Origin: Eledone cirrhosa
Taxonomy: Eukaryota
Assembly: GCA_964016885.1 (NCBI GenBank)
Contig: OZ024746.1
Coordinates: 682,001 to 746,000 of the forward strand
Direction of reading: 5' to 3'
DNA length: 64,000 nucleotides
Under the pieces are notes generated by a model, which searched no databases, was not told the DNA's origin, and was given only the letters and a program-made list of their open reading frames with translations. The first letter of the stretch is position 1. Every line of letters begins with the position of its first letter. Position numbers and translations under genes: made by a program. This document shows, in pieces, positions 25 through 64,000 of the stretch.

Positions 25-135
25 GACTGATCAGCCTGATTTGCATACTAGCAGACTGGTTGATCAGTCAGGTCTGCATATTAGCAGATCCACTGATCAG
101 CCAGATTTGCATATCAGCAGACTGGCCAGTCAGTT
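25..135. repeat. Degenerate ~33-bp tandem repeat (~3 copies)
   Basis: Recurring tgatcag..g.t.tgcata..agcaga unit. Confidence 0.5.
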
Positions 136-460
136 TCCTGTATACAAGCGATAAATGGCCGGCTTTGCCAAATTCAAATAAAAAAGAAAATTTCACTCTA
201 CTTCACACCATAAAACAGATATACACCACTCTGAGGAGCCTCCTGGCTTGTCACAGACTTTAAACCCCCACTTGGTAAGTGAATCAGGTTTGGAATGTTG
301 TCAATGAAACTCAATTAACAGGAGTTGTGACTGGTAGATAGTATCAGAAATAGAAACATTTTCTTGGTCCAATTTTACCTCACTTGCTCTGGAATCTTTT
401 TGGTCAATTTCATTAATCTATGTTTTCCTTTGATAAATAAAATAAAAAGTTTCTACATAC

Positions 461-615: not shown

Positions 616-783
616 CTAGCAGAGCAATGGAAAATCACAATGATGATAAAAACCATTTGTTAAATATGATTCTTTTACTTTCAACCATCCAGTTTAACAG
701 TTCCTATTTAGGTATCTAACAGGTTTTATCTCTTTTTATATCAAAATCCCTGAAACTACCCCTGGTTCTATGATACTAAACGA

Positions 784-8165: not shown

Positions 8166-8883
8166 GGTGGCACAGTGGAGTAGGTGAGTGTCAGAGAGAG
8201 GAGAATGTCTGGTCTGGAGTCAATCCTTATATCTTCATAATCACCGTTCTTAGTTTACTCCTGCTAGGAGATCAGTTATTTATCACTCTGTAATAGAACA
8301 CAGCTGGCTAGAATTACACTTCAACAACAATACCAGCAACATCAAAGTTGTCTTTTAATCAATAATGCATTTCTTTTTTTTACATTTAGAAAAATATTCC
8401 AGTACAGATTGACTGATACCCCCCCCCCCCCCCACACACACACACCCCACCCACACACAACCACACCCTCTCCCACCTGATAATGGCAAACAAATTTTAA
8501 TGGTGAAGTGAGAAATCAATAATGGTTTAGTAGTTATAGATTACATCTATAAGATAGAAGGATCAAATACATAAATCATTTAGTTTTTTTTTGTTTAATA
8601 AATCAACATCAGTCACACATTTTAACAACTGATTTAAGATAAAGTGAAATCCTTTCAAGTAAAGAGACTGATCCAAAGATCAGAAGATAAGCCATAAAAG
8701 AAAACATGTTTTAATTGAAAATTAAAACCTTGAATATTTATTAGATAGAAAAACAAAACTGATGACAAAAGATAAAATAATTTGTTGATGTCAAAGGAGA
8801 AAAATAAATATATATATAGTAAGAATTATATAAACATGGTTATTGATTACTTGTCAAAAAAAAATGAAATATTTTCAATTTAC

Positions 8884-9017
8884 CTTTAACATTTTCAAAG
8901 CCAAACACAATATCTTTCATGACACCATTTTTATCAGGAACTATAATTTTTGAGATGATGGCACCAAATGTCAATATTTCAACTTGAGCAGATCCAGAAG
9001 CATTCTTTAAGATTATT
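8884..9017 (-). CDS. GALM: Galactose mutarotase, upstream coding exon (not the first exon)
   Basis: IILKNASGSAQVEILTFGAIISKIIVPDKNGVMKDIVFGFENVK(G) fits the GALM N-terminal GA...PDxxG...DIVxGF motif. Polypyrimidine acceptor ttttcttttag and donor AAAG|gtaaat. The terminal G joins GG at 615-614 to make Gly. Confidence 0.92.
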
Positions 9018-37900: not shown

Positions 37901-40900
37901 TAACATACAGATACTGGAAGTTATGCCAACACTACAAAATACTAACAGGGAGTACATACACTGGAAGTTATGCCAACACTACAAAATACTAACATACATA
38001 CACTGGAAGTTATACCAACACTACAAAATACTAACATACATACACTGGAAGTTATGCCAACACTACAAAATACTAACAGGGAGTACATACACTGGAAGTT
38101 ATGCCAACACTACAAAATACTAACAGGGAATACATACACTGAAAGTTATGCCAACACTACAAAATACTAACATACATACACTGGAAGTTATGCCAACACT
38201 ACAAAACACAAACATACATACACTGGAAGTTATGCCAACACTACAAAATACTAACATACACACACTGGAAGTTATGCCAACACTACAAAATACTAACAGG
38301 GAGTACATACACTGGAAGTTATGCCAACACTACAAAATACTAACATACATACACTGGAAGTTATGCCAACACTACAAAATACTAACATACATACACTGGA
38401 AGTTATGCCAACACTACAAAACACTAACAGGGAGTACATACACTGGAAGTTATGCCAACACTACAAAATACTAACAGGGAGTACATACACTGGAAGTTAT
38501 GCCAACACTACAAAATACTAACATACACACACTGGAAGTTATGCCAACACTACAAAATACTAACAGGGAGTACATACACTGGAAGTTATGCCAACACTAC
38601 AAAATACTAACATACATACACTGGAAGTTATGCCAACACTACAAAATACTAACAGGGAGTACATACACTGGAAGTTATGCCAACACTACAAAATACTAAC
38701 ATACATACACTGGAAGTTATGCCAACACTACAAAATACTAACATACATACACTGGAAGTTATGCCAACACTACAAAACACTAACAGGGAGTACATACACT
38801 GGAAGTTATGCCAACACTACAAAATACTAACATACATACACTGGAAGTTATGCCAACACTACAAAATACTAACATACATACACTGGAAGTTATGCCAACA
38901 CTACAAAATACTAACATACAGACACTGGAAGTTATGCCAACACTACAAAATACTAACATACATACACTGGAAGTTATACCAACACTACAAAATACTAACA
39001 TACAGACACTGGAAGTTATGCCAACACTACAAAATACTAACAGGGAGTACATACACTGGAAGTTATGCCAACACTACAAAATAATAACATACATACACTG
39101 GAAGTTATGCCAACACTACAAAATACTAACATACATACACTGGAAGTTATGCCAACACTACAAAATACTAACAGGGAGTACATACACTGGAAGTTATGCC
39201 AACACTACAAAATACTAACAGGGAATACATACACTGAAAGTTATGCCAACACTACAAAATACTAACAGGGAATACATACACTGGAAGTTATGCCAACACT
39301 ACAAAATACTAACATACATACACTGGAAGTTATGCCAACACTACAAAATACTAACAGGGAATACATACACTGGAAGTTATGCCAACACTACAAAATACTA
39401 ACAGGGAATACATACACTGGAAGTTATGCCAACACTACAAAATACTAACAGGGAATACATACACTGGAAGTTATGCCAACACTACAAAATACTAACAGGG
39501 AATACATACACTGGAAGTTATGCCAACACTACAAAATACTAACAGGGAATACATACACTGGAAGTTATACCAACACTACAAAATACTAACAGGGAATACA
39601 TACACTGGAAGTTATGCCAACACTACAAAATACTAACAGGGAATACATACACTGGAAGTTATGCCAACACTACAAAATACTAACAGGGAATACATACACT
39701 GGAAGTTATGCCAACACTACAAAATACTAACAGGGAATACATACACTGGAAGTTATACCAACACTACAAAATACTAACAGGGAATACATACACTGGAAGT
39801 TATGCCAACACTACAAAATACTAACAGCAAATACATACACTGGAAGTTATGCCAACACTACAAAATACTAACAGGGAATACATACACTGGAAGTTATACC
39901 AACGCTACAAAATACTAACAGGGAATACATACACTGGAAGTTATGCCAACGCTACAAAATACTAACAGGGAATACATACACTGGAAGTTATGCCAACACT
40001 ACAAAATACTAACAGGGAATACATACACTGGAAGTTATGCCAACACTACAAAATACTAACAGGGAATACATACACTGGAAGTTATACCAACACTACAAAA
40101 TACTAAAAGGGAATACATACACTGGAAGTTATGCCAACACTACAAAATACTAACAGCAAATACATACACTGGAAGTTATGCCAGCACTACAAAATACTAA
40201 CAGGGAATACATACACTGGAAGTTATACCAACACTACAAAATACTAACAGGGAATACATACACTGGAAGTTATACCAACACTACAAAATACTAACAGCGA
40301 ATACATACACTGGAAGTTATGCCAACACTACAAAATACTAACAGGGAATACATACACTGGAAGTTATGCCAACACTACAAAATACTAACAGGGAATACAT
40401 ACACTGGAAGTTATGCCAACACTACAAAATACTAACAGGGAATATATACACTGGAAGTTATGCCAACACTACAAAATACTAACAGCGAATACATACACTG
40501 GAAGTTATGCCAACACTACAAAATACTAACAGGGAATACATACACTGGAAGTTATGCCAACACTAGAAAATACTAACAGGGAATACATACACTGGAAGTT
40601 ATGCCAACACTACAAAATACTAACAGGGAATACATACACTGGAAGTTATACCAACACTACAAAATACTAACAGCGAATACATACACTGGAAGTTATACCA
40701 ACACTACAAAATACTAACAGCGAATACATACACTGGAAGTTATGCCAACACTACAAAATACTAACAGGGAATACATACACTGGAAGATATGCCAACACTA
40801 CAAAATACTAACAGGGAATACATACACTGGAAGTTATGCCAACACTACAAAATACTAACAGGGAATACATACACTGGAAGTTATACCAACACTACAAAAT

Positions 40901-42083
40901 ACTAACAGGGAATACATACACTGGAAGTTATACCAACACTACAAAATACTAACAGGGAGTACATACACTGGAAGTTATACCAACACTACAAAATACTAAC
41001 AGGGAATACATACACTGGAAGTTATGCCAACACTACAAAATACTAACAGGGAATACATACACTGGAAGTTATACCAACACTACAAAATACTAACAGGGAG
41101 TACATACACTGGAAGTTATACCAACACTACAAAATACTAACAGGGAGTACATACACTGGAAGTTATACCAACACTACAAAATACTAACAGGGAATACATA
41201 CACTGGAAGTTATGCCAACACTACAAAATACTAACAGGGAATACATACACTGAAAGTTATACCAACACTACAAAATACTAACAGGGAGTACATACACTGG
41301 AAGTTATACCAACACTACAAAATACTAACAGGGAGTACATACACTGGAAGTTATACCAACACTACAAAATACTAACAGGGAATACATACACTGGAAGTTA
41401 TGCCAACACTACAAAATACTAACAGGGAGTACATACACTGGAAGTTATACCAACACTACAAAATACTAACAGGGAGTACATACACTGGAAGTTATACCAA
41501 CACTACAAAATACTAACAGGGAGTACATACACTGGAAGTTATACCAACACTACAAAATACTAACAGGGAGTACATACACTGGAAGTTATACCAACACTAC
41601 AAAATACTAACAGGGAATACATACACTGGAAGTTATGCCAACACTACAAAATACTAACAGGGAGTACATACACTGGAAGTTATACCAACACTACAAAATA
41701 CTAACAGGGAGTACATACACTGGAAGTTATACCAACACTACAAAATACTAACAGCGAATACATACACTGGAAGTTATGCCAACACTACAAAATACTAACA
41801 GGGAGTACATACACTGGAAGTTATACCAACACTACAAAATACTAACAGGGAGTACATACACTGGAAGTTATACCAACACTACAAAATACTAAAAGGGAGT
41901 ACATACACTGGAAGTTATACCAACACTACAAAATACTAACAGGGAGTACATACACTGGAAGTTATACCAACACTACAAAATACTAACAGGGAGTACATAC
42001 ACTGGAAGTTATACCAACACTACAAAATACTAACAGCGAATACATACACTGGAAGTTATGCCAACACTACAAAATACTAACAG
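34943..42083. repeat. Satellite 2: 47-bp unit (aacagggagtacatacactggaagttatgccaacactacaaaatact) mixed with a 42-bp deletion variant, ~7.1 kb
   Basis: Direct inspection. The unit translates as YIHWKLCQHYKILT, the retrotransposon segment following RHD. Confidence 0.97.
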
Positions 42084-42125
42084 AAAAAAGATGGTGGAGA
42101 CACACACCAGAAATGTGACCAAAGT
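42084..42125 (+). mobile_element. Continuation of the RLE retrotransposon right of satellite 2
   Basis: In frame with the last unit: ...HYKILT-EKRWWRHTPE, matching the W(Y/W)xHxPE motif that follows IHWxLC in this family. Confidence 0.75.
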
Positions 42126-42179
42126 AATCTAGTGGAAACTGTGTGAGAAGTGGAGATTTTATGAAGCAGACAATTGGTG

Positions 42180-42400
42180 TGACTCTGAGTTATGCACTCT
42201 ATTGAGTAATGTTACTCCAAAGACCCTTCAGAGGAACCCCATTTCAGCTGCTTGTATTCGTAATCATATTCTTTCAGTCATTACCTAAGATTCATGACTT
42301 TGGCAGGATGAAAAACAAAATTGACCCCAGCAGGATTTGAACTCAGAAGCCATAATGAAATACTAGCAAAGCCTCTTCCCAACACTCTAACTCTTACAAA
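42180..42400 (-). mobile_element. RTE fragment (42180-42300) followed by a SINE remnant (42303-42395)
   Basis: First part is near-identical to 6812-6930. Second part reads aggatgaaaa...ttgaccccagcaggatttgaactcagaa. Confidence 0.6.
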
Positions 42401-42612: not shown

Positions 42613-43776
42613 TTTATGTCTAAAAAAATTGACAAAATTCCAAACCCTGTGTATAAGCCAAGACAGTTAATTAACACAATGTTTAGATGGTGCTGTTTTT
42701 AAATTCTCATGTCTGGAGAAATATATTGATGTAGTTTTAATATTTTGATATTTAAAATGTTTTAAGCGTTGTTTAGAATATAGTTTGTTTCACAACTCCA
42801 TTATGTAATGATTTTTTCATTTTCATCTTAGCTGGAGAAAGAATATGATATTCAAACTAAGAACCTGAGTCCCAAACCTGATTCATTGTGGTAGAAGATT
42901 TGTTATTACCTTATTATCACATTAATAAAACAATATGTTGTTGATTAAATCTCTAAATGTCTGAGATTCACCATCATTTAGTGCCTGTTAGTATGGGTTG
43001 GATTGGTTGTCACAGACCAAGTCAGTACATAATAGGAGCTATTGTCCTCCCAGACTGTCTGGGGGCCACATTTTGCTTACATAAGTTCTGGTTTTGGCAT
43101 GACTTCTACAGGTTGGATGTCCTTCCTATTACCAACTACTTTACAGAGTGTACTGAGTGCAAATTATTATAGAATAACCCTTTCCTTGTACTCTTTAATA
43201 TTTCAATAGTTGATATTTAAGACGAGTTCTTTAACAACACATCTGTTAGTGACCATAGTTTACAGCTTAGTTAAGATGTTAACATATATATATTGGAATA
43301 GTTCCCTGCCATCTTTTTCCATTAATGAATAAAGCTGAAAACTTTTAGATAAAGATGGTATGACATTTATGATATAAATATATTTTCTGAAGTCATTAGT
43401 AAGATAAAAAGCTACTATTAGTAGAAAGAGCTACTATTAGTAGCAAGAAATCTAGGTCACATCAGATCACTACTCAGTATATAGTGTGTTTGTCTTTTGA
43501 TTTATTTCCAATAAAAAGCTAAATTAATTTTATGTCTGTGGAGGAGGAGAAAGGGTTCTGGATATAATATCTTCCAAATGCAGCAGAGAAGTATCATTTA
43601 TTCCCAGTATCAGTAACAATCAATACAGATGTCTCTAGAAGTAATTCTCATTCATCTTTTTGCTATAATTAACTCTAAATAGAATGGATAATAAAAACAC
43701 TGAGCTGAGCTGAGATTTTCACTTGAAAACCATTGATTTATTATTTGTCCTTATACAACTTTGCAATAATTAACTT

Positions 43777-44120
43777 TACTCTCAGGTCCCAAATAATAGA
43801 AGGGGATTGGAATAAGTGTGTGTGTGTGGGGGGATCAGTAATTTGTCTAGGTTGTCTCTGTTGATTTATTTAAAAAACCCAGAATTAGTTGTTTAGTTTA
43901 CATATTGAGACCCTAACCCATCCTATTTATTTTATAACGTGGCATTTCTAGTAATGTACTTTTTTTGTCATGTATGTTTTTTAATGTCTAAAGAAAATTG
44001 CCACAGGAATGCTACTACTTAAAATAAAACTTCGCCAGAGATAGATTAACAAAATTGAATAAGTGGGGGTGAGGGGTGGAATAAGAGCAAGGGTGAGTGG
44101 GTGGGGGAATCTGAGAAATG
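43777..44120. mobile_element. TA-flanked MITE, copy 2 (inverted relative to copies 1 and 3; far end decayed)
   Basis: Starts tactctcaggtcccaaataata. Body is the reverse complement of 50200-50470. Confidence 0.7.
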
Positions 44121-46669: not shown

Positions 46670-47612
46670 TCATCATCATCAACGTTTAACGTCCGTGTTC
46701 CACGCTTGCATGGGTTTGGACGGGGGTAGTCCCACTTGAGGCAAGGGTGATTGTCTTGCTCGCATAGGACTGTCTGGCAGGTTTTCTACAGTTGGATGCC
46801 CTTCCTAACACCAACCACATTTACAGTGTGGGTCTGGGAGGTTTTTACCGTGTTGCCTACACGGCCACATTACAGCGTGGACTGTGTGTTTTTTTGTCGT
46901 GACACCTACACGATCTCATTTGTTTCGGCCTGGATGGCGCGGCACCAACATAACTTTACATAGAACGGGGTGGTGTGGATGGGGTGGGGGTGGTGGCGGG
47001 ACGGGGTGTATTTTGTTAGAGATGCCTACTGGCAAGGCGGGTCTTCTCTGTTACTGAGTACCGCCAAAGGTCTCGGTCCAGTGACATTGTCTTGGAGAGG
47101 TGTAAGTGTGTGAGGTCGGAGTTTATCAGCTCATCCCAGGTTTTTCTAGGTCTGCCTATTCCGTGGCTACCGTCTATCTTTATTGCCCTGCACTTTGTTA
47201 TACAGCTATCGACTTTCATGCGCATCACGTGTCCATACCAACGCAGCCTTCTCTCGAGTAAACAACATCTGATCCCTCTTATCTCTAATTTTTTTCTTAG
47301 TTCGTTTATGCTTTGCCGTTCACGTATATTACTGTTACACATCCAGCGGAGCATGCAAGCTTCGTTCCTCTCTAGTCTGCGTATATCCTCTGCACACAAT
47401 GCCCAGGTCTCACTACCATGCAACATTGCTGTTCGTATGCAGGCATCGTACAACCTGCCTTTCATTTTTAGGGAGAACCCTTTAGCAGCTAATAGTGGTA
47501 TAAGCTCTCTGAACTTTTTCCAACCAGTTCTGACTCTAGCTACAGTACTTTCAGAGCACCCTCCCCCACTGCTGATTTTATCGCCCAGGTAACTGAAGCT
47601 GTCCACTATTTC
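46670..47612 (-). mobile_element. 5'-truncated RTE-clade LINE: intact C-terminal reading frame (47016-47606) plus 3' UTR and (GAT)n tail
   Basis: FSYLGD.ISSGGGC...ARVRTGWKKFREL.PLL...KGRLYDAC.R..MLHGSETW...RRLRWYGHVMRM...GRPRKTW...DRDLWR are RTE post-RT motifs. No stops over 196 aa suggests a fairly young insertion. Confidence 0.9.
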
Positions 47613-47615
47613 TAT

Positions 47616-47655
<40 letters not shown>

Positions 47656-47843
47656 AGATAAATCTACCAAAATATACGGTAATGTCCAATCCGTATGAAG
47701 AACTCAATGTAATCCAAATATCATGAAAAGAGAAGATGTATTCAAAAATTTTTTCGATGAAAATCACAGGAAAACAGAGTCAAGATAAATTAATAAAAAT
47801 AACGAATAAAAACAAAGAAACAGTTCCTTATATTAAAAAATTC

Positions 47844-47976
47844 ATCATTTTACAATCGTTTCTAGGATATATATGTGTGTGTTGGTATGTATATCCTATA
47901 GATCTATGTAAAAATTTTACAAATATCAGAGGGAATATACATACCTACACATATATATGCTGTCTTCAGAAATAAT
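47844..47976 (-). ncRNA. Predicted type I hammerhead ribozyme (inverted arm copy)
   Basis: Same fold on the minus strand: attattt CUGAAGA ... GAAAC gatt GUA aaatgat. Confidence 0.7.
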
Positions 47977-48552
47977 TGTTTCTACTTTAGGCACAAGGCC
48001 AGCAATTACCCAGAAATAATGATATTTGTTTATTGAAAAAAACCAACAAAGATTTAATATAATAGGTCCGTTTGGGAACAGGCTTTGAATTGACCTATAG
48101 AAAAGTAGTAAGTGGTCAAGTTGATAGAATAGTAGTAGTAGAAATTTAATTTAGGGGTAGAGGAATGCAGACTTCAGTTTTGAATGGAAAGAATATTTTG
48201 AATGAAAAGATTACTTTGGGGATGAAAAGAGGTCAAGCTGGTGAAAGGTACACGAAAATTTGATGTTATTAAAGAATAATGCTAATGTTAAAATCGAAGG
48301 AGAATAAAATTTTACGATAAATGTGTTAGTGAGAAATACCAATCTTATTTAAAACATAAAGAATTTAGATCTATAAAAAAAAAATTAAATTAATTTAATT
48401 GATAGGTATACTTATAGGGATAAATTTATATTAATTCATATAGATATGATAAATAAGAGTTAGATGTTATTAAAGAATGTTGTTAAAAACAAAGGAAAAA
48501 AATTTGGGGGGGGGGGGGGGATAAATGTATTAGTGAGAAATAACAAACTTAT

Positions 48553-48879
48553 TCATATATAGGAACTACTTCTAACCAATTTAAAGTAAGATTTAATACC
48601 CACAAACACAGTTTTAAAAATGCCGCATTAGCTAATACAACATCCTTGGCTGAAATAATTAATAATTATAGAAAAAAGAATATCGATTATAACCTGACCT
48701 GGAGTGTGCTCAAAAGGGCCACCCCTTATCAAAATGACAGATATGAGTGTAGATTATGTTCCCAGGAACTTTTTTAAATAATGAAATCTAAGGATATCCT
48801 ACTAAATAAGCGACAAGAATTAATTATATCGTGCAATCATAGAATTAGAAAAACTTTCAAATATTATAAACCTAATTAA
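48553..48879 (+). pseudogene. Penelope-type GIY-YIG endonuclease C-terminal fragment
   Basis: SYIGTTSNQFKVRFNTHKHSFKN...TSLAEII...LTWSVLKRATPY...CRLCSQELF*IMK...LLNKRQELIISCNHR carries YIG, FKxRxxxHxxSF, CxLC and LLNKRxEL..C.H motifs of PLE endonucleases. One in-frame stop at 48775-48777. Confidence 0.85.
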
Positions 48880-49614
48880 TATACACTTATATTTTACAAA
48901 TTATTATAATTATTTTTTTAAAATTTAGTTAACCTATAATTAGTATTTTATTACTGAGAACTGCATAATTTTATTTCCCTTTTACAGCTATCTTTTCCTA
49001 AAATTAATACCAATAAGTATACATATAAACTATTTTAATTTCCTGTTATGAATCTTAATTCCTTGTAATCTATATAAGTTTGTTATTTCTCACTAATACA
49101 TTTATCCCCCAAAAAAATGTTTTCCTTTGTTTTTAACAACATTCTTTAATAACATCTAACTCTTATTTATCATATCTATATGAATTAATATAAATTTATC
49201 CCTATAAGTATACCTATCAATTAAATTAATTTAATTTCTTTTTATAGATCTAAATTCCTTATGTTTTTAATAAGATTGGTATTTCTCACTAACACATTTA
49301 TCGTAAAATTTTATTCTCCTTCGATTTTAACATTAGCATTATTCTTTAATAACATCAAATTTTCGTGTACCTTTCACCAGCTTGACCTCTTTTCATCCCC
49401 AAAGTAATCTTTTCATTCAAAATATTCTTTCCATTCAAAACTGAAGTCTGCATTCCTCTACCCCTAAATTAAATTTCTACTACTACTTTTCTATTGGTCA
49501 ATTCAAAACCTGTTCCCAAACGGACCTATTATATTAAATCTTTGTTGGTTTTTTTCAATAAACAAATATCATTATTTCTGGGTAATTACTGGCCTTGTGC
49601 CTAAAGTAGAAACA

Positions 49615-49747
49615 ATTATTTCTGAAGACAGCATATATATGTGTAGGTATGTATATTCCCTCTGATATTTGTAAAATTTTTACATAGATCTATAGGATAT
49701 ACATACCAACACACACATATATATCCTAGAAACAATCGTAAAATGAT
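49615..49747 (+). ncRNA. Predicted type I hammerhead ribozyme (PLE pseudo-LTR, sense copy)
   Basis: Stem I attattt/aaatgat, core CUGAAGA (49622-49628), ~100-nt self-complementary stem II region, GAAAC (49729-49733), 4-nt loop, GUA cleavage triplet (49738-49740). Confidence 0.7.
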
Positions 49748-50139
49748 GAACTTTTTAATATAAGGAACTGTTTATTTGTTTTAATTCATTATTTTTATTA
49801 ATTTATATATATATATATTAATTTATTAAAATAACAGATTAAAGTTTAAGCTAGGAATCGCTGCTTTTACCCTTAACGGGATCTTCTGAAACTATTATTA
49901 TTATATATTATATATATATATATATATATCTTGCCTCTGTTTTCCTGGGATTTTCATCGAATATTTTTGAATGCATCTTCTCTTTTCATGATATTTGGAT
50001 TACATTGAGTTCTTCATACGGATTGGACACTACCGTATATTTTGGTAGATTTATCTACATATATATATATATATATAGGGAGAGAGAGAGAAAGAGAGGG
50101 AGAGATATTCATTGATACTATAATATATACCGCTCCTTA

Positions 50140-50488
50140 TACTCTCAGGTCTCAAATACCTCCCCTTCTCGCTTACTAATTTTTCAAATGTTTTCCACCA
50201 CCCCACCACTCTTCTATCTATGGCAACATTTTATTTTAAGTAGCAGCATTCCTGCAACAATTAATTTTCTTTAGACATTAAAAAACATTATACATGACAA
50301 AAAAAGTACATTAGAAATCCCATATGTTATAAAATAAATAGGATGGGTTGGGGCGTCAATATGTAAACTAAACAACTAATTCTGTTTTTTTTTTTAAATC
50401 AACGGAGACAACCTAGAAAAATTACCAATTTTCCACCCCAGCCCCCACTTATTCCACCCCAACCCCTATTATTTGGGACCTGAGAGTA
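50140..50488. mobile_element. TA-flanked MITE, copy 3
   Basis: TIRs tactctcaggtctcaaata ... tatttgggacctgagagta. Confidence 0.8.
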
Positions 50489-50577
50489 AATAAAGGAGAG
50501 TAAGTATTATAACTATTATTTTTCTTAATACAAAAATACATAATTATACATTGTTACATTGGTGTGGAGTTGTCAGC

Positions 50578-50875: not shown

Positions 50876-51450
50876 GGGGGAAGGCTATCAGTTTTAAATA
50901 TTTGTAAAATAATTTCTCTAAGATGTTGAATATTAATAAAAATATATATTAAAACTAGAGCAACACAACACAAGCATTTTAAAGCCATATCACTTGTTAA
51001 AGCAGGGATTAGCCTTGTGGGTCCTTATGAGAGGTTTCATACTCATCATAGGGTCCTTTTTAAAGCAATGATTTACAGTTGAATGCCCTTCCTGGCATCA
51101 ACCTTTTTAGTCATTTCTTTCAACATGCAGAAATACAGTGAATTTATTCTTAACCAGATACACACAGAAATAAACTGGATACTCGCAGAGAAAAAGATAA
51201 AAACTAAAATGATGATGATGATGTACTTAAATGAAGTCATTGTAAGCAAATTTCAAAGCCAAATATACCAAAATAAATGAATTTACTGATAAATAATATA
51301 GGCGTTACCATTAATGTAAACAATTCCATTCTCTAAACTGATAAAAATTTTAAATGGCGGTTGTTGTTTATACATAATGTATTAAAAAAACATGATGCTG
51401 AAAGTGGAAGATTATCTTGGCAAATAATAGAGCTAGAAAGAATACAACAT

Positions 51451-54400
51451 TTAACCCTTTCATTACCATATTTCTAATGAAAGACACTGTGTATGTCATT
51501 AACCCTTTCATTACCATATTTCTAATGAAAGACACTGTCTATGTCATTAACCCTTTCATTACCATATTTCTAATGAAAGACACTGTCTATGTCATTAACC
51601 CTTTAATTACCATATTTCTAATGAAAGACACTGCCTATGTCATTAACCCTTTCATTTCCATATATCTAATGAAAGACACTGTCTATGTCATTAACCCTTT
51701 CATTACCATATTTCTAATGAAAGACAGTCTATGTCATTAAACCTTTCATTACCATATTTCTAATGAAATACACTGTCTATGTCTTTAACCCTTTCATTAC
51801 CATATTTCTAATGAAAGACACTGTCTATGTCATTAACCCTTTCATTACCATCTTTCTAATGAAAGACACTGTCTATGTCATTAACCCTTTCATTACCATA
51901 TTTCTAATGAAAGACACTGTCTATGTCATTAACCCTTTCATTACCATATTTCTAATGAAAGACAGTCTATATCATTAAACCTTTCATTACCATATTTCTA
52001 ATGAAAGACACTGTCTATGTCATTAACCCTTTCATTACCATATTTCTAATGAAAGACACTGTCTATGTCATTAACCCTTTCATTACCATATATCTAATGA
52101 AAGACACTGTCTATGTCATTAACCCTTTCATTACCATATTTCTAATGAAAACAGTCTATATCATTAACCCTTTCATTACCATATTTCTAATGAAAGACAC
52201 TGTCTATGTCATTAACCCTTTCATTACCATATTTCTAATGAAAGACACTGTCTATGTCATTAACCCTTTAATTACCATATTTCTAATGAAAGACACTGCC
52301 TATGTCATTAACCCTTTCATTACCATATATCTAATGAAAGACACTGCCTATGTCATTAACCCTTTCATTACCATATTTCTAATGAAAGACAGTCTATATC
52401 ATTAAACCTTTCATTACCATATTTCTAATGAAAGACAGTCTATGTCATTAAACCTTTCATTACCATATTTCTAATGAAATACACTGTCTATGTCTTTAAC
52501 CCTTTCATTACCATATTTCTAATGAAAGACACTGTCTATGTCATTAACCCTTTCATTACCATATTTCTAATGAAAGACACTGTCTATGTCTTTAACCCTT
52601 TTATTACCATATTTCTAATGAAAGACACTGTCTATGTCATTAACCCTTTCATTACCATATTTCTAATGAAAGACACTGTCTATGTCATTAACCCTTTCAT
52701 TACCATATTTCTAATGAAAGACACTGTCTATGTCATTAACCCTTTAATTACCATATTTCTAATGAAAGACACTGCCTATGTCATTAACCCTTTCATTACC
52801 ATATTTCTAATGAAAGACAGTCTATGTCATTAAACCTTTCATTACCATATTTCGAATGAAATACACTGTCTATGTCTTTAACCCTTTCATTACCATATTT
52901 CTAATGAAAGACACTGTCTATGTCATTAACCCTTTCATTACCATATTTCTAATGAAAGACACTGTCTATGTCATTAACCCTTTCATTACCATATTTCTAA
53001 TGAAAGACACTGTCTATGTCATTAACCCTTTCATTACCATATTTCTAATGAAAGACAGTCTATATCATTAAACCTTTCATTACCATATTTCTAATGAAAG
53101 ACACTGTCTATGTCATTAACCCTTTCATTACCATATTTCTAATGAAAGACACTGTCTATGTCATTAACCCTTTCATTACCATATTTCTAATGAAAGACAC
53201 TGTCTATGTCATTAACCCTTTCATTACCATATTTCTAATGAAAGACACTGTCTATGTCATTAACCCTTTCATTACCATATTTCTAATGAAAGACACTGTC
53301 TATGTCATTAACCCTTTCATTACCATATTTCTAATGAAAGACACTGTCTATGTCATTAACCCTTTCATTACCATGTTTCTAATGAAAGACACTATGTCTT
53401 TAACCCTTTCATTGCCATATTTCTAATGAAAGACAGACTATGTCATTAACCCTTTCATCACCATATTTCTAATGAAAGACACTGTCTATGTCATTAACCC
53501 TTTCATTACCGTATTTTTAAGGAAATACACTGTCTATGTCTTTAATCCTTTCATTACCATATTTCTAATGAAAGACAGTCTATGTCATTAAACCTTTCAT
53601 TACCATGTTTCTAATGAAAGACACTATGTCTTTAACCCTTTCATTGCCATATTTCTAATGAAAGACAGTCTATGTCATTAACCCTTTCATCACCATATTT
53701 CTAATGAAAGACACTGTCTATGTCATTAACCCTTTCATTACCGTATTTCTAAGGAAATACACTGTCTATGTCTTTAACCCTTTCATTACCATATTTCTAA
53801 TGAAAGACAGTCTATGTCATTAAACCTTTCATTACCATATTTCTAATGAAAGACAGTCTATGTCATTAAACCTTTCATTACCATATTTCTAATGAAAGAC
53901 ACTATCTATATCATTAACCCTTTCATTACCATATTTCTAATGAAAGACACTGTCTATGTCATTAACCCTTTCATTACCATATTTCTAATGAAAGACACTG
54001 TCTATGTCATTAACCCTTTCATTACCATATTTCTAATGAAAGACACTGTCTATGTCATTAACCCTTTCATTACCATGTTTCTAATGAAAGACACTATGTC
54101 TTTAACCCTTTCATTGCCATATTTCTAATGAAAGACAGTCTATGTCATTAACCCTTTCATCACCATATTTCTAATGAAAGACACTGTCTATGTCATTAAC
54201 CCTTTCATTACCGTATTTTTAAGGAAATACACTGTCTATGTCTTTAATCCTTTCATTACCATGTTTCTAATGAAAGACAGTCTATGTCATTAAACCTTTC
54301 ATTACCATGTTTCTAATGAAAGACACTATGTCATTAACCCTTTCATCACCATATTTCTAATGAAAGACACTGTCTATGTCATTAACACTTTCATTAAGAT

Positions 54401-57400
54401 GTTTCTAATGAAAGACACTGTCTATGTCATTAACCCTTTCATTACCATATTTCTAATGAAAGACACTATGTGTATAAACCTTTCATTACCATATTTCTAA
54501 TGAAAGACAGTCTATGTCATTAACCCTTTCATTACCATATTTCTAATGAAAGACACTGTCTATGTCTTTAACCCTTTTATTACCATATTTCTAATGAAAG
54601 ACACTGCCTATGTCATTAACCCTTTCATTACCATATTTCTAATGAAAGACACTGCCTATGTCATTAACCCTTTCATTACCATATTTCTAATGAAAGACAC
54701 TGTCTATGTCTTTAACCCTTTTATTACCATATTTCTAATGAAAGACACTGTCTATGTCATTAACCCTTTCATTACCATATTTCTAATGAAAGACACTATG
54801 TCATTAGCCCTTGCATTACCATATTTCTAATGAAAGACAGTCTATGACATTAAACCTTTCATTACCATATTTCTAATGAAAGACAGTCTATGTCATTAAA
54901 CCTTTCATTACCATGTTTCTAATGAAAGACACTGTCTATGTCATTAGCCCTTTCATTACCATATTTCTAATGAAAGACACTGTCTATGTCATTAACCCTT
55001 TCATTACCATATTTCTAATGAAATACACTGTCTATGTCTTTAATCCTTTCATTACCATATTTCTAATGAAAGACACTATGTCTTTAACCCTTTCATTACC
55101 ATATTTCTAATGAAAGACAGTCTATGTCATTAAACCTTTCATTACCATATTTCTAATGAAAGACACTATCTATATCATTAACCCTTTCATTACCATATTT
55201 CCAATGAAAGACACTGTCTATGTCTTTAACCCTTTCAATACCATATTTCTAATGAAAGACACTGTCTATGTCATTAACCCTTTCATTAAGATGTTTCTAA
55301 TGAAAGACACTGTCTATGTCATTAACCCTTTCATTACCATATTTCTAATGAAAGACACTATGTGTATAAACCTTTCATTACCATATTTCTAATGAAAGAC
55401 AGTCTATGTCATTAACCCTTTCATTACCATATTTCTAATGAAAGACACTGTCTATGTCATTAGCCCTTTCATTACCATATTTCTAATGAAAGACACTGTC
55501 TATGTCATTAGCCCTTTCAATACCACATTTCTAATGAAAGACACTGTCTATGTCATTAATCCTTTCATTACCATATTTCTAATGAAAGACACTGTCTATG
55601 TCTTTAACCCTTTTATTACCATATTTCTAATGAAAGATACTATGTCATTAACTTTTTCATTACCATATTTCTAATGAAAGACAGTCTATGTCATTAAACC
55701 TTTCATTACCATATTTCTAATGAAAGACAGTCTATGTCATTAAACCTTTCATTACCATGTTTCTAATGAAAGACACTGTCTATGTCATTAGCCCTTTCAT
55801 TACCATATTTCTAATGAAAGACACTGTCTATGTCATTAACCCTTTCATTACCATATTTCTAATGAAAGACACTGTCTATGTCTTTAATCCTTTCATTACC
55901 ATATTTCTAATGAAAGACACTCTCTATGTCATTAATCCTTTCATTACCATATTTCTAATGAAAGACACTGTCTATGTCTTTAACCCTTTTATTACTATAT
56001 TTCTAATGAAAGACACTGCCTATGTCATTAGCCCTTTCATTACCATATTTCTAATGAAAGACACTATGTCATTAACCCTTTCTTTACCATATTTCTAATG
56101 AAAGACAGTCTATGTCATTAAACCTTTCATTACCATGTTTCTAATGAAAGACACTGTCTATGTCATTAACCCTTTCATTAAGATGTTTCTAATGAAAGAC
56201 ACTGTCTATGTCATTAACCCTTTCATTACCATATTTCTAATGAAAGACACTATGTGTATAAACCTTTCATTACCATATTTCTAATGAAAGACAGTCTATG
56301 TCATTAACCCTTTCATTACCATATTTCTAATGAAAGACACTGTCTATGTCTTTAACCCTTTTATTACCATATTTCTAATGAAAGACACTGCCTATGTCAT
56401 TAACCCTTTCATTACCATATTTCTAATGAAAGACACTGCCTATGTCATTAACCCTTTCATTACCATATTTCTAATGAAAGACACTGTCTATGTCTTTAAC
56501 CCTTTTATTACCATATTTCTAATGAAAGACACTGTCTATGTCATTAACCCTTTCATTACCATATTTCTAATGAAAGACACTATGTCATTAGCCCTTGCAT
56601 TACCATATTTCTAATGAAAGACAGTCTATGACATTAAACCTTTCATTACCATATTTCTAATGAAAGACAGTCTATGTCATTAAACCTTTCATTACCATGT
56701 TTCTAATGAAAGACACTGTCTATGTCATTAGCCCTTTCATTACCATATTTCTAATGAAAGACACTGTCTATGTCATTAACCCTTTCATTACCATATTTCT
56801 AATGAAATACACTGTCTATGTCTTTAATCCTTTCATTACCATATTTCTAATGAAAGACACTATGTCTTTAACCCTTTCATTACCATATTTCTAATGAAAG
56901 ACACTATCTATATCATTAACCCTTTCATTACCATATTTCTAATGAAAGACACTGTCTATGTCATTAACTGTTTCATTACCATATTTCTAATGAAAGACAC
57001 TGTCTATGTCATTAACCCTTTCATTAACATATTTCTAATGAAAGACACTATGTGTATAAACCTTTCATTACCATATTTCTAATGAAAGACAGTCTATGTC
57101 TTTAACCCTTTTATTACCATATTTCTAATGAAAGACACTGCCTATGTCATTAACCCTTTCATTACCATATTTCTAATGAAAGACACTGCCTATGTCATTA
57201 GCCCTTTCATTCCCATATTTCTAATGAAAGACACTATGTCATTAACTTTTTCATTACCATATTTCTAATGAAAGACAGTCTATGTCATTAAACATTTCAT
57301 TACCATATTTCTAATGAAAGACAGTCTATGTCATTAAACCTTTCATTAAGATGTTTCTAATGAAAGACACTGTCTATGTCATTAGCCCTTTCATTACCAT

Positions 57401-60400
57401 ATTTCTAATGAAAGACACTGTCTATGTCATAAACCCTTTCATTACCATAGTTCTAATGAAAGACACTGTCTATGTCATTAGCCCTTTCATTACCATATTT
57501 CTAATGAAAGACACTGTCTATGTCTTTAATCCTTTCATTACCATATTTCTAATGAAAGACACTGTCTATGTCATTAATCCTTTCATTACCATATTTCTAA
57601 TGAAAGACACTGTCTATGTTTTTAACCTTTTTATTACTATATTTCTAATGAAAGACACTGCCTATATCATTAGCCCTTTCATTACCATATTTCTAATGAA
57701 AGACACTATGTCATTAACCCTTTCTTTACCATATTTCTAATGAAAGACAGTCTATGTCATTAAACCTTTCATTACCATGTTTCTAATGAAAGACACTGTC
57801 TATGTCATTAACCCTTTCATTAAGATGTTTCTAATGAAAGACACTGTCTATGTCATTAACCCTTTCATTACCATATTTCTAATGAAAGACACTATGTGTA
57901 TAAACCTTTCATTACCATATTTCTAATGAAAGACAGTCTATGTCATTAACCCTTTCATTACCATATTTCTAATGAAAGACACTGTCTATGTCTTTAACCC
58001 TTTTATTACCATATTTCTAATGAAAGACACTGCCTATGTCATTAACCCTTTCATTACCATATTTCTAATGAAAGACACTGCCTATGTCATTAACCCTTTC
58101 ATTACCATATTTCTAATGAAAGACACTGTCTATGTCTTTAACCCTTTTATTACCATATTTCTAATGAAAGACACTGTCTATGTCATTAACCCTTTCATTA
58201 CCATATTTCTAATGAAAGACACTATGTCATTAGCCCTTGCATTACCATATTTCTAATGAAAGACAGTCTATGACATTAAACCTTTCATTACCATATTTCT
58301 AATGAAAGATAGTCTATGTCATTAAACCTTTCATTACCATGTTTCTAATGAAAGACACTGTCTATGTCATTAGCCCTTTCATTACCATATTTCTAATGAA
58401 AGACACTGTCTATGTCATTAACCCTTTCATTACCATATTTCTAATGAAATACACTGTCTATGTCTTTAATCCTTTCATTACCATATTTCTAATGAAAGAC
58501 ACTATGTCTTTAACCCTTTCATTACCATATTTCTAATGAAAGACAGTCTATGTCATTAAACCTTTCATTACCATATTTCTACTGAAAGACACTATCTATA
58601 TCATTAACCCTTTCATTACCATATTTCCAATGAAAGACACTGTCTATGTCTTTAACCCTTTCAATACCATATTTCTAATGAAAGACACTGTCTATGTCAT
58701 TAACCCTTTCATTACCATATTTCTAATGAAAGACACTGTCTATGTCTTTAACCCTTTTATTACCATATTTCTAATGAAAGACACTGTCTATGTCATTAGC
58801 CCTTTCATTACCATATTTCTAATGAAAGACACTGTCTATGTCATTAGCCCTTTCAATACCATATTTCTAATGAAAGACACTGTCTATGTCATTAACCCTT
58901 TCAATACCATATTTCTAATGAAAGACACTGTCTATGTCTTTAACCCTTTTATTACCATATTTCTAATGAAAGACACTGTCTATGTCATTAGCCCTTTCAT
59001 TATCATATTTCTAATGAAAGACACTATGTCATTAACCCTTTCATTACCATATTTCTAATGAAAGACACTGCCTATGTAATTAACCCTTTCATCACCATAT
59101 TTCTAATGAAAGACACTGTCTATGTCATTAACCCTTTCATTAACATATTTCTAATGAAAGACACTATGTGTATAAACCTTTCATTACCATATTTCTAATG
59201 AAAGACAGTCTATGTCTTTAACCCTTTTATTACCATATTTCTAATGAAAGACACTGCCTATGTCATTAACCCTTTCATTACCATATTTCTAATGAAAGAC
59301 ACTGCCTATGTCATTAGCCCTTTCATTCCCATATTTCTAATGAAAGACACTATGTCATTAACTTTTTCATTACCATATTTCTAATGAAAGACAGTCTATG
59401 TCATTAAACATTTCATTACCATATTTCTAATGAAAGACAGTCTATGTCATTAAACCTTTCATTAAGATGTTTCTAATGAAAGACACTGTCTATGTCATTA
59501 GCCCTTTCATTACCATATTTCTAATGAAAGACACTGTCTATGTCATAAACCCTTTCATTACCATATTTCTAATGAAAGACACTGTCTATGTTATTAGCCC
59601 TTTCATTACCATATTTCTAATGAAAGACACTGTCTATGTCTTTAATCCTTTCATTACCATATTTCTAATGAAAGACACTGTCTATGTCATTAATCCTTTC
59701 ATTACCATATTTCTAATGAAAGACACTGTCTATGTTTTTAACCCTTTTATTACTATATTTCTAATGAAAGACACTGCCTATATCATTAGCCCTTTCATTA
59801 CCATATTTCTAATGAAAGACACTATGTCATTAACCCTTTCTTTACCATATTTCTAATGAAAGACAGTCTATGTCATTAAACCTTTCATTACCATGTTTCT
59901 AATGAAAGACACTATGTCTTTAACCCTTTCATTACCATATTTCCAATGAAAGACACTGTCTATGTCTTTAACCCTTTCATTACCATATTTCTAATGAAAG
60001 ACACTACCTATGTCATTAACCTTTGCATTACCTTATTTCTAATGAAAGACACTGCCTATGTCATTAACCCTTTCATCACCATATTTCTACTGAAAGACAC
60101 TGTCTATGTCTTTAAATCTTTCATTACCATATTTCTAATGAAAGACACTGTCTATGTCATTAGCCCTTTCATTACCATATTTCTAATGAAAGACACTGTC
60201 TATGTCATTAACCCTTTCATTACCATATTTCTAATGAAAGACACTGTCTATGTCATAAACCCTTTCATTACCATATTTCTAATGAAAGACAGTCTATGTG
60301 TATAAACCTTTCATTACCATATTTCTAATGAAAGACACTGTCTATGTCTTTAACCCTTTTATTACCATATTTCTAATGAAAGACACTGTCTATGTCATTA

Positions 60401-63400
60401 ACCCTTTCATTACCATATTTCTAATGAAAGACACTATGTCATTAGCCCTTGCATTACCATATTTCTAATGAAAGACAGTCTATGATATTAAACCTTTCAT
60501 TACCATATTTCTAATGAAAGACAGTCTATGTCATTAAACCTTTCATTACCATGTTTCTAATGAAAGACACTGTCTATGTCATTAGCCCTTTCATTACCAT
60601 ATTTCTAATGAAAGACACTGTCTATGTCATTAACCCTTTCATTACCATATTTCTAATGAAATACACTGTCTATGTCTTTAACCCTTTCATTACCATATTT
60701 CTAATGAAAGACAGTCTATGTCATTAAACCTTTCATTACCATATTTCTAATGAAAGACACTATCTATATTATTTTTATATTTTGTTATTGCCTCCTCCTT
60801 ATTGAGGACGCCTTTTTGTGTAAACTCCCCCCTTTGTACTTGTCCCACTTTTGATGCCCCAGTGGCAAATAAAAGAAATATATCTATATCATTAACCCTT
60901 TCATTACCATATTTCCAATGAAAGACACTGTCTATGTCTTTAACCCTTTCAATACCATATTTCTAATGAAAGACACTGTCTATGTCATTAACCCTTTCAT
61001 TACCATATTTCTAATGAAAGACACTGTCTATGTCTTTAACCCTTTTATTACCATATTTCTAATGAAAGACACTGTCTATGTCATTAGCCCTTTCATTACC
61101 ATATTTCTAATGAAAGACACTGTCTATGTCATTAGCCCTTTCAATACCATATTTCTAATGAAAGACACTGTCTATGTCATTAACCCTTTAAATACCATAT
61201 TTCTAATGAAAGACACTGTCTATGTCATTAGCCCTTTCATTATCATATTTCTAATGAAAGACACTATGTCATTAACCCTTTCATTACCATATTTCTAATG
61301 AAAGACACTGCCTATGTAATTAACCCTTTCATCACCATATTTCTAATGAAAGACACTGTCTATGTCATTAACTGTTTCATTACCATATTTCTAATGAAAG
61401 ACACTGTCTATGTCATTAACCCTTTCATTAACATATTTCTAATGAAAGACACTATGTGTATAAACCTTTCATTACCATATTTCTAATGAAAGACACTGCC
61501 TATGTAATTAACCCTTTCATCACCATATTTCTAATGAAAGACACTGTCTATGTCATTAACTGTTTCATTACCATATTTCTAATGAAAGACACTGTCTATG
61601 TCATTAACCCTTTCATTAACATATTTCTAATGAAAGACACTATGTGTATAAACCTTTCATTACCATATTTCTAATGAAAGACAGTCTATGTCTTTAACCC
61701 TTTTATTACCATATTTCTAATGAAAGACACTGCCTATGTCATTAACCCTTTCATTACCATATTTCTAATGAAAGACACTGCCTATGTCATTAGCCCTTTC
61801 ATTCCCATATTTCTAATGAAAGACACTATGTCATTAACTTTTTCATTACCATATTTCTAATGAAAGACAGTCTATGTCATTAAACATTTCATTACCATAT
61901 TTCTAATGAAAGACAGTCTATGTCATTAAACCTTTCATTAAGATGTTTCTAATGAAAGACACTGTCTATGTCATTAGCCCTTTCATTACCATATTTCTAA
62001 TGAAAGACACTGTCTATGTCATAAACCCTTTCATTACCATATTTCTAATGAAAGACACTGTCTATGTCATTAGCCCTTTCATTACCATATTTCTAATGAA
62101 AGACACTGTCTATGTCTTTAATCCTTTCATTACCATATTTCTAATGAAAGACACTGTCTATGTCATTAATCCTTTCATTACCATATTTCTAATGAAAGAC
62201 ACTGTCTATGTTTTTAACCCTTTTATTACTATATTTCTAATGAAAGACACTGCCTATATCATTAGCCCTTTCATTACCATATTTCTAATGAAAGACACTA
62301 TGTCATTAACCCTTTCTTTACCATATTTCTAATGAAAGACAGTCTATGTCATTAAACCTTTCATTACCATGTTTCTAATGAAAGACACTATGTCTTTAAC
62401 CCTTTCATTACCATATTTCCAATGAAAGACACTGTCTATGTCTTTAACCCTTTCATTACCATATTTCTAATGAAAGACACTACCTATGTCATTAACCTTT
62501 GCATTACCTTATTTCTAATGAAAGACACTGCCTATGTCATTAACCCTTTCATCACCATATTTCTACTGAAAGACACTGTCTATGTCTTTAAATCTTTCAT
62601 TACCATATTTCTAATGAAAGACACTGTCTATGTCATTAGCCCTTTCATTACCATATTTCTAATGAAAGACACTGTCTATGTCATTAACCCTTTCATTACC
62701 ATATTTCTAATGAAAGACACTGTCTATGTCATAAACCCTTTCATTACCATATTTCTAATGAAAGACAGTCTATGTGTATAAACCTTTCATTACCATATTT
62801 CTAATGAAAGACACTGTCTATGTCTTTAACCCTTTTATTACCATATTTCTAATGAAAGACACTGTCTATGTCATTAACCCTTTCATTACCATATTTCTAA
62901 TGAAAGACACTATGTCATTAGCCCTTGCATTACCATATTTCTAATGAAAGACAGTCTATGATATTAAACCTTTCATTACCATATTTCTAATGAAAGACAG
63001 TCTATGTCATTAAACCTTTCATTACCATGTTTCTAATGAAAGACACTGTCTATGTCATTAGCCCTTTCATTACCATATTTCTAATGAAAGACACTCTCTA
63101 TGTCATTAACCCTTTCATTACCATATTTCTAATGAAATACACTGTCTATATCTTTAACCCTTTCATTACCATATTTCTAATGAAAGACAGTCTATGTCAT
63201 TAAACCTTTCATTACCATATTTCTAATGAAAGACACTATCTATATCATTAACCCTTTCATTACCATATTTCCAATGAAAGACACTGTCTATGTCTTTAAC
63301 CCTTTCAATACCATATTTCTAATGAAAGACACTGTCTATGTCATTAACCCTTTCATTACCATATTTCTAATGAAAGACACTGTCTATGTCTTTAACCCTT

Positions 63401-64000
63401 TTATTACCATATTTCTAATGAAAGACACTGTCTATGTCATTAGCCCTTTCATTACCATATTTCTAATGAAAGACACTGTCTATGTCATTAGCCCTTTCAA
63501 TACCATATTTCTAATGAAAGACACTGTCTATGTCATTAACCCTTTAAATACCATATTTCTAATGAAAGACACTGTCTATGTCTTTAACCCTTTTATTACC
63601 ATATTTCTAATGAAAGACACTGTCTATGTCATTAGCCCTTTCATTATCATATTTCTAATGAAAGACACTATGTCATTAACCCTTTCATTACCATATTTCT
63701 AATGAAAGACACTGCCTATGTAATTAACCCTTTCATCACCATATTTCTAATGAAAGACACTGTCTATGTCATTAACTGTTTCATTACCATATTTCTAATG
63801 AAAGACACTGTCTATGTCATTAACCCTTTCATTAACATATTTCTAATGAAAGACACTATGTGTATAAACCTTTCATTACCATATTTCTAATGAAAGACAC
63901 TGCCTATGTAATTAACCCTTTCATCACCATATTTCTAATGAAAGACACTGTCTATGTCATTAACTGTTTCATTACCATATTTCTAATGAAAGACACTGTC
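51451..64000. repeat. Satellite 3: 48-bp unit (ttaaccctttcattaccatatttctaatgaaagacactgtctatgtca) with 46- and 44-bp variants, >12.5 kb, runs off the window
   Basis: Direct inspection. The unit equals the left terminus of the piggyBac-like MITE (compare 45397-45440 and the reverse complement of 5015-5048). Confidence 0.97.
60770..60880 (+). mobile_element. 111-bp retroposed insert within satellite 3
   Basis: Unique sequence flanked by a direct repeat tatctatat (60761-60769 and 60881-60889), with AATAAA and an A-rich end at its 3' side. Confidence 0.75.

What the first reader, a model, noticed from the sequence alone, without database searches (positions are those of the whole stretch)
49615..49747. 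Twin hammerhead ribozymes with a very long stem II, one on each strand
Seen: the full hammerhead core (CUGAAGA...GAAAC-N4-GUA) with a 7-bp stem I occurs at 49615-49747(+) and 47844-47976(-). Stem II spans ~100 nt (atatatatgtgtaggtatgtatat pairs with atatacataccaacacacacatatatat). Known: PLE pseudo-LTRs carry minimal type I hammerheads, usually with a short stem II. Inference: transcription in either direction meets a potential self-cleavage site, and the minus-strand copy would be sense to GALM if its intron extends here. Caveat: the pair closing stem II (C.A) is non-canonical, so activity may be reduced or lost.
Basis: partly seen in the sequence, partly recalled or inferred. Interest (0 to 1): 0.72.

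Follow-up and report, generated by a model that had tools for sequence, protein, structure and literature searches.

The report
Long-stemmed hammerhead of Hydra-clade Penelope elements
The two motifs are mirror-image ends of one broken jumping gene that sits, likely, in an intron of a sugar-metabolism gene; thousands of relatives in this genome share its hammerhead self-cutting RNA motif with an unusually long, conserved second stem, but these two copies are predicted to pair with each other and so would likely not cut.

Summary
Observation confirmed. Both motifs are arms of one ~770-bp inverted repeat around an endonuclease remnant: a 5'-truncated Penelope-like retrotransposon (Hydra clade by motifs) with the usual inverted copy. 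The ~100-nt stem II and the C·A closing pair are not decay. They are family-wide (5,327 genome matches with a long stem, 105 with a short one, controls 1 and 2). They persist in sister families with compensatory changes in stems I and II and a U3-A8 core swap (1,015 matches). Published Hydra-clade hammerheads have 12-26-nt stem II domains, and Rfam misses this one. Both window copies carry a change in the palindromic helix III needed for dimer cleavage. Read-through in either direction is predicted to pair the hammerhead with the other arm, so 'a cut site in either direction' is unlikely, although the minus copy is probably sense to GALM intron 1. Of 90 copies, 24 begin at the 5' strand of stem I and 1 at the cut site: the hammerhead likely starts the element RNA, and templates were mostly uncut. 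Cleavage is untested. The scan noted long-stem PLE hammerheads before on other DNA. New variant of a known kind.

The parts
47635..48552 (-). Inverted, 5'-truncated copy of the element's 3' UTR/pseudo-LTR, with hammerhead and tail to about +195 from the cut site; ends in (TA)n
47844..47976 (-). Hammerhead copy 2; helix III AC-GAUU-GU; predicted cut 3' of 47851; probably sense to GALM intron 1
48546..48879 (+). [quoted passage not shown]
   Evidence: the related family in L061 hits Pfam GIY-YIG weakly (E=5e-4, below cut-off)
48880..49806 (+). 3' UTR/pseudo-LTR of the direct copy, ending at the family's +63 end site
49615..49747 (+). Hammerhead copy 1 (type I): stem I 49615-21/49741-47, core 49622-28, GAAA 49729-32, helix III AC-AAUC-GU, predicted cut after 49740
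49629..49728 (+). 100-nt stem II domain: C·A, 2 bp, C·C, then three helices separated by internal loops and an apical hairpin
49663..49690 (+). Apical sub-element (UGAUA...UGUA / UACAUAGAUC), nearly invariant in sequence across sister families A, B and C
49807..49923 (.). (TA)n runs plus a 74-bp piece of another repeat that interrupt the plus arm between the +63 site and its tail
49924..50077 (+). Tail (about +64 to +195 from the cut site; 5' UTR sequence in full-length elements), followed by (TA)n

Best explanation
The two motifs are the arms of one inverted-repeat insertion left by a Penelope-like retrotransposon, likely of the Hydra clade, whose pseudo-LTR carries a type I hammerhead with a conserved ~100-nt stem II; the family motif is predicted to cut only as a dimer or with protein help, and these two copies would likely be silenced by pairing with each other. 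Shown: the element anatomy, the family-wide long stem, covariation across sister families, and the pile-up of copy 5' ends at stem I. Inferred: transcription starts at the 5' strand of stem I, so the hammerhead is the first ~130 nt of the element RNA; reverse transcription starts at two internal sites (+63, +195) on mostly uncut RNA; cleavage is slow or conditional and needs helix III pairing between two motifs; the long stem II is kept as a folded module whose invariant apical part is likely a protein-binding or internal-promoter element.
For: Inverted repeat around an EN remnant, ends in (TA)n; this layout is described as common for PLEs (PMC8557442). Near-full-length copy L072: hammerhead, ATG ~320 nt after the cut site, RT with DKT and YRDD, CxCX5C linker, EN, second hammerhead ~3.9 kb later. 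5,327 long vs 105 short matches, controls 1 and 2. Core-anchored pairs 5-11 of stem II stay paired in the majority of each of six subfamilies, with A-U/G-C/U-A exchanges; stem I covaries; the true register pairs 88-100% and beats all six shifted registers in every subfamily. The sister family has U3-A8 with variable position 7 (1,015 matches, control 0), a swap reported as active and natural (PMC3088659; PMC4209133). Helix III is a palindrome: self-duplex -10.0 kcal/mol intact, -5.8 minus copy, none for the plus copy. Fold-back captures 131-133 of 133 bases. 5' ends: 24 of the 44 copies ending within 200 nt lie at -133..-120 (binomial P~1e-17; ~1e-13 counting inverted pairs once), 1 at +1; 3' ends: 54 of 90 at +50..64, 31 of 90 at +190..197. 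In the anole PLE, RT starts at two internal sites on uncut RNA and the hammerhead cuts only with protein (PMC11167929).
Against: No cleavage or RNA data. G10.1-C11.1, called highly conserved in PLE hammerheads (PMC4209133), is absent. In family A the AT-repeat arms also pair when shifted by 2 (86%), so the covariation argument rests on families B and C and on stem I. The regex preselected the stem II base. RNAalifold on a MAFFT alignment recovered only stem I and the apical part, because the lower helices were misaligned between families. Folding z-scores are weaker in B and C (-0.9 to -5.5). The 5'-end pile-up is weaker in the sister family: 5 of 30 at stem I or core, 1 at the cut, about 5 inside stem II (by eye). 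Clade assignment is by motifs only, with no tree; the motif reads RWS rather than RWK, and the unit is ~3.9 kb against 'generally <3 kb'. MFE folding ignores co-transcriptional kinetics.
Confidence: 0.75

Rival explanations
1. The hammerhead is catalytically dead in this lineage; the region is kept for another job (promoter, RT or protein binding) and merely retains the core.
For: Non-canonical 10.1/11.1 pair; only 1 of 90 copies begins at the cut site; cleavage is dispensable for insertion in vitro in another PLE; apical element conserved in sequence with almost no compensatory change.
Against: The C3-G8 to U3-A8 double change with free position 7 and covarying stem I are what selection on the catalytic fold gives. 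Mismatched closing pairs occur in listed PLE hammerheads: U·U in 14 of 26 Hydra rows and C·A in PLE-X1_cBra; U·U is reported to support cleavage.
Confidence: 0.15
2. The long stem II is a retained spliceosomal intron: a donor GT lies ~18 nt into stem II in families A, B and C, and the acceptor is either UACAUAG (42-49 nt) or the YAG that includes G12 (84-91 nt), which would explain the conserved A11.1; splicing would switch the ribozyme off.
For: Donor-like GTATGT/GTAAGT/GTAGGT and YAG in the three families; Penelope has an intron in its promoter region (PMC2377424) that abuts its hammerhead.
Against: 0 of the 100 listed (of 105) short-stem genomic copies has either precise junction, although many have other deletions (weak, since PLEs keep introns). 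Long-stem families D and E have no AG at G12. C·A also closes stem II in unrelated hammerheads. The helices covary as a structure.
Confidence: 0.1
3. One reading: the two copies act as bidirectional cut sites, the minus one in the GALM pre-mRNA.
For: The minus copy has an intact core and is probably inside GALM intron 1 in sense; its helix III can still self-pair at -5.8 kcal/mol, and plus with minus pairs at -8.2.
Against: The complementary arm is transcribed first in both directions and captures the motif; no second same-strand motif in the insertion to dimerise with; the layout is a routine by-product of insertion (many such pairs).
Confidence: 0.07

Closest known systems
Hydra clade of C-terminal EN+ Penelope-like elements and their hammerheads (Craig et al. 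2021, PMC8557442; section 11, passages, supplement files S1-S2 and excerpts of S4 read), e.g. Hydra-1_Obim
   Same: DKT, CxCX5C, CxxC and CxH around the EN E/N, RW motif, (TA)n insertion, inverted 5'-truncated copy, type I hammerhead near the 3' end with short helix III; mismatched stem II closing pairs are common there.
   Different: Listed Hydra stem II domains are 12-26 nt (26 rows; longest PLE row ~54 nt, a plant PLE-X flagged as deviating) against 99-116 nt here; closing pair C·A followed by 2 bp and C·C; unit ~3.9 kb; tail ~132 nt rather than 30-40.
[quoted passage not shown]
   Same: In pLTRs, palindromic helix III/loop 3, predicted dimer activity, U3-A8 variant, pairs on opposite strands.
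   Different: Helix II there is 6-8 bp with one extra base and a conserved G10.1-C11.1 pair; here a four-tier ~100-nt domain without that pair.
PAc (Poseidon of Anolis) hammerhead and internal RT start (PMC11167929; main text read)
   Same: Two discrete 3' end sites downstream of the hammerhead, AT-rich targets, uncut RNA as the apparent template.
   Different: In PAc the ORF starts in stem II; here the ATG is ~320 nt after the cut site. Different clade. Activity shown there, not here.

Membership tests
Type I hammerhead ribozyme | Core C3-U4-G5-A6-N7-G8-A9 and G12-A13-A14 | tested here: met
   Both copies; 75-81 of 77-81 per position in 81 unselected family copies
Type I hammerhead ribozyme | A15.1-U16.1 pair and NUH cut triplet | tested here: met
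   AC...GU then A17 (GUA) in both copies
Type I hammerhead ribozyme | Stem I joins the 5' and 3' ends | tested here: met
   7 bp here; both-side changes at 4 of 7 pairs across families
Type I hammerhead ribozyme | Stem II closed by G10.1-C11.1 (usual, not universal) | tested here: not met
   C·A; mismatched closings have precedent
Type I hammerhead ribozyme | Stem I-stem II tertiary contact | not tested
   No loop 1/loop 2 contact was modelled
Type I hammerhead ribozyme | Self-cleavage after N17 | not testable with these tools
   No raw RNA reads available; needs an in vitro assay
Type I hammerhead ribozyme | Match to an Rfam hammerhead model | tested here: not met
   0 of 40 matches at E<=10
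PLE min-HHR (Cervera 2014) | Located in the pLTR of a PLE | tested here: met
   ~740 nt after the EN end in the window; both ends of L072
PLE min-HHR (Cervera 2014) | Palindromic helix III/loop 3 | tested here: met
   Family: GAUC in 64 of 69; broken by one change in each window copy
PLE min-HHR (Cervera 2014) | Helix II of 6-8 bp with one extra base before G10.1-C11.1 | tested here: not met
   99-116-nt domain, C·A
Hydra-clade PLE | DKG changed to DKT | tested here: met
   HSDKTGN in L072 (criterion)
Hydra-clade PLE | CxCX5C linker; CxxC and CxH around EN E and N | tested here: met
   CNCRNKANC, CRLC, CNH
Hydra-clade PLE | N-terminal RWK motif | tested here: inconclusive
   RVRWS in L072: RW kept, K not
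Hydra-clade PLE | Insertion into (TA)n | tested here: met
   Both window ends; most of 90 sampled 3' ends
Hydra-clade PLE | Generally under 3 kb | tested here: not met
   Hammerhead-to-hammerhead unit ~3.9 kb in L072, ~4.1 kb in sister family L132
Hydra-clade PLE | Phylogenetic placement of RT | not tested

The most novel reading that the evidence does not exclude
A lineage of Hydra-clade retrotransposons has evolved a distinct hammerhead subclass (C·A/2-bp/C·C junction, ~100-nt stem II with an invariant apical motif) that forms the very 5' end of the element RNA; the apical motif binds the element's own protein or drives the internal promoter and so gates cleavage. Standard searches miss it, so thousands of ribozyme copies per genome are uncounted.
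Probability: 0.3. Interest if true: 0.65.

Novelty: new variant of a known kind. Interest (0 to 1): 0.4.

Why it matters
What PLE hammerheads do is still open (stated in PMC8557442; cleavage was dispensable in vitro in PMC11167929). This lineage gives natural variants to test: an active-type core swap, a conserved non-canonical junction and a large stem II, in over 6,000 pattern matches that Rfam does not flag. The copy ends suggest the ribozyme sits at the transcript start and is usually uncut when copied, which points to a regulatory or late role rather than release of the template. The particular locus in the window is ordinary.

Tried and rejected
Rfam scan: no hammerhead; weak miRNA hits come from the AT/GT hairpin. 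RNA evidence: no RNA holder listed; laying four runs of unknown kind (contigs only) on L072 gave no GT-AG joint and no end pile-up, and cannot address splicing, cleavage or expression. The small share of organism B (4 contig records) is no evidence of distribution. Stem II as a recent microsatellite or MITE insertion into a short stem: rejected, because short-stem members of this family are scattered internal deletions and the long form is shared by families whose EN domains are ~61-70% identical. Decay as the source of C·A: rejected. Cut-site footprint in genomic copies (lead from an earlier scan note): not found, 1 of 90 and 1 of 30. Initiator/DPE-like promoter spacing: fitted one family only by eye, dropped. 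Pfam found no RT family in the ORF pieces; 625 homologues were found, unnamed or 'hypothetical' among the 120 listed, all 120 with YRDD and 109 with CxCX5C. The 20-residue candidate GALM exon 1 gave 0 PDB hits. Lunse et al. 2017 on PLE hammerhead dimers could not be read; I know it only through PMC6765202 passages. Literature searches for a long PLE stem II or cephalopod hammerheads listed no paper that, by title, abstract start or the parts read, describes it; that paper, the supplementary figures of PMC4209133 and non-open papers were not seen and could.

Full report
Observation. On the plus strand, 49615-49621 pairs with 49741-49747, the core CUGAAGA is at 49622-49628, GAAAC at 49729-49733, and the predicted cut is after 49740. 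The 100 nt between the core strands fold into one long interrupted hairpin, -33.4 kcal/mol, z = -5.9, with 0 of 200 shuffles as stable. The minus copy at 47844-47976 differs at 3 of 161 positions. Rfam reports no hammerhead among 40 matches at E<=10.

What it belongs to. The copies are arms of a 768-bp, 93%-identical inverted repeat. Between them, 48546-48879 encodes the C-terminal part of a GIY-YIG-type endonuclease with one stop, and both outer ends run into (TA)n. All 150 scored genome matches to this peptide were 92-100% identical. L072 holds a near-full-length element: pseudo-LTR with hammerhead, an ATG about 320 nt after the cut site, a frameshifted RT with DKT and YRDD, a CxCX5C linker, the endonuclease, and a second hammerhead about 3.9 kb after the first. 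These motifs and the (TA)n target match the Hydra clade as defined in PMC8557442 section 11, except RWS for RWK and a longer unit; no tree was built. An inverted 5'-truncated copy next to the main one is described there as common. So the 'twin' layout is a routine by-product of one insertion.

The long stem is a lineage trait. CTGAWGA followed by GAAACGATCGTA at 71-140 nt has 5,327 matches (control 1); at 8-70 nt it has 105 (control 2). The 100 listed long matches are, by my eye count, 74 family A (the window's), 4 A3, 8 B, 8 C (caught through an inner look-alike of the core), 4 D and 2 E. Family C has the core UUGANAA, that is U3-A8 with a free position 7: 1,015 matches, control 0. This swap is reported as active and natural (PMC3088659 passages) and occurs in schistosome PLEs (PMC4209133). 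The EN domains of B and C are about 70% and 61% identical to A.

Covariation. Anchored on the core, 100 distinct sequences from six subfamilies share C·A (U-A in A3), two pairs, a C·C or C·U mismatch, and then a helix whose pairs 5-11 exchange among A-U, G-C, U-A and G·U while the majority in each subfamily stays paired; stem I covaries too. The true register pairs 88-100% and is best in every subfamily, though the AT repeats of family A also pair when shifted by two. That set was preselected by a regex on the stem base, so I checked unselected copies: A11.1 in 81 of 81 and C10.1 in 75 of 79 family-A copies (9 of 90 dropped for lacking 80% of the motif), and A11.1 in 25 of 25 family-C copies that keep that side (by eye; 5 of 30 lack it). 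An apical sub-element is nearly invariant in sequence, with little compensatory change. RNAalifold on the MAFFT alignment did not recover the lower helices, which were misaligned between families. Families D (G-C closing, 95 nt) and E (102 nt) and several 47-83-nt motifs in other loci show that long stem II is not limited to this junction type; those were not tied to an ORF.

Comparison. The 26 Hydra-clade rows of File S2 in PMC8557442 have stem II domains of 12-26 nt; 14 close with U·U, and one plant PLE closes with C·A; the longest PLE row is about 54 nt and flagged as deviating. Cervera and De la Pena describe 6-8-bp helices II with a conserved G-C pair, palindromic helix III, no monomer cleavage for the motif they tested and low dimer activity. 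My searches found no description of a ~100-nt stem II in PLE hammerheads, but Lunse et al. 2017 and the supplementary figures of PMC4209133 were not seen. I read part 1 of 5 of bioRxiv 2026.07.22.740005; it did not bear on stem length.

Are these two copies active? The family helix III is the palindrome AC-GAUC-GU, which self-pairs at -10.0 kcal/mol. The plus copy has lost self-pairing, the minus copy keeps -5.8, and plus with minus gives -8.2. A transcript crossing the insertion in either direction makes the antisense arm first; MFE folding pairs 131 and 133 of 133 hammerhead bases with that arm. GALM exons lie on the minus strand at 461-616 and about 8880-9017. A candidate first exon 31 kb past the window's end has a donor whose phase fits the next acceptor, but it is too short to confirm by search. 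The minus copy is therefore probably in GALM intron 1 in sense, but as part of a long hairpin (inference).

Where copies begin and end. I took the first 90 of 4,266 matches to an anchor 14 nt after the cut site. 46 extend more than 200 nt upstream. Of the other 44, 24 begin at -133 to -120, the 5' strand of stem I (about 3 expected; P about 1e-17, 1e-13 if four inverted pairs count once), most joined to (TA)n or an inverted copy; 1 begins at +1. A structure-induced RT stop would be expected on the 3' side of stem II, so a template end, likely the transcription start, fits better (inference). 3' ends fall at +50..64 in 54 of 90 and +190..197 in 31 of 90. This resembles the anole element, where RT starts at two internal sites on uncut RNA and the hammerhead cuts only with protein, and Penelope's internal promoter downstream of its start site (PMC2377424 abstract and discussion). 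In family C the pattern is weaker: 5 of 30 at stem I or core, 1 at the cut (by eye). No RNA data could be obtained.

Verdict. A real, conserved, long-stemmed variant of the PLE type I hammerhead, in an ordinary dead insertion. Earlier scan notes describe the same kind of motif on other DNA; they are unchecked and not counted as support. The organism was not determined. Cleavage and the role of the stem are untested. New variant of a known kind; interest 0.4.

Noticed in passing
window 461-616 and ~8880-9017 (-); L161 1224-1282 (-): GALM exons; the candidate first exon implies an intron 1 of about 86 kb filled with tandem repeats.
   Followed up: partly
window 47016-47592 (-): C-terminal fragment of a non-LTR (RTE-like, label recalled) reverse transcriptase ORF directly left of the insertion; a longer copy lies in L061 8313-9900.
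   Followed up: no
window 10121-30985, 35000-39200, 40000-42200, 51340-64000: Large minisatellite arrays (51-nt unit with long open frames on both strands, 47-nt and 48-nt units among them).
   Followed up: no
window 49821-49894: 74-bp repeat flanked by (TA)n, found next to family copies in L062, L065-L068 and L071, sometimes as inverted pairs; probably the end of another (TA)n-targeting element.
   Followed up: partly
window 43775-44045 / 50213-50490 / 7927-8134: A further dispersed repeat (~280 bp, 83% identical), in inverted orientation on either side of the insertion.
   Followed up: no
L133-L135, L141 (family D); L136, L137 (family E): Other hammerheads with 95-102-nt stem II; D closes with canonical G-C and appears branched. 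No EN domain found within the 3.5-kb loci.
   Followed up: partly
rows, e.g. G000:C18:20325121-20325328 and C24:17778759-17778997: A short-stem (20-nt, U·U-closed) hammerhead family with the same helix III, occurring as close inverted pairs.
   Followed up: no
window 49573-49624 and many loci: The stretch just upstream of stem I is a hot spot for duplications and insertions among copies (10-bp direct repeat in the window; an ~80-bp insert in L061).
   Followed up: no
L061 430-2991 (-): 854-residue open frame of another Hydra-like PLE family with a weak Pfam GIY-YIG hit.
   Followed up: partly
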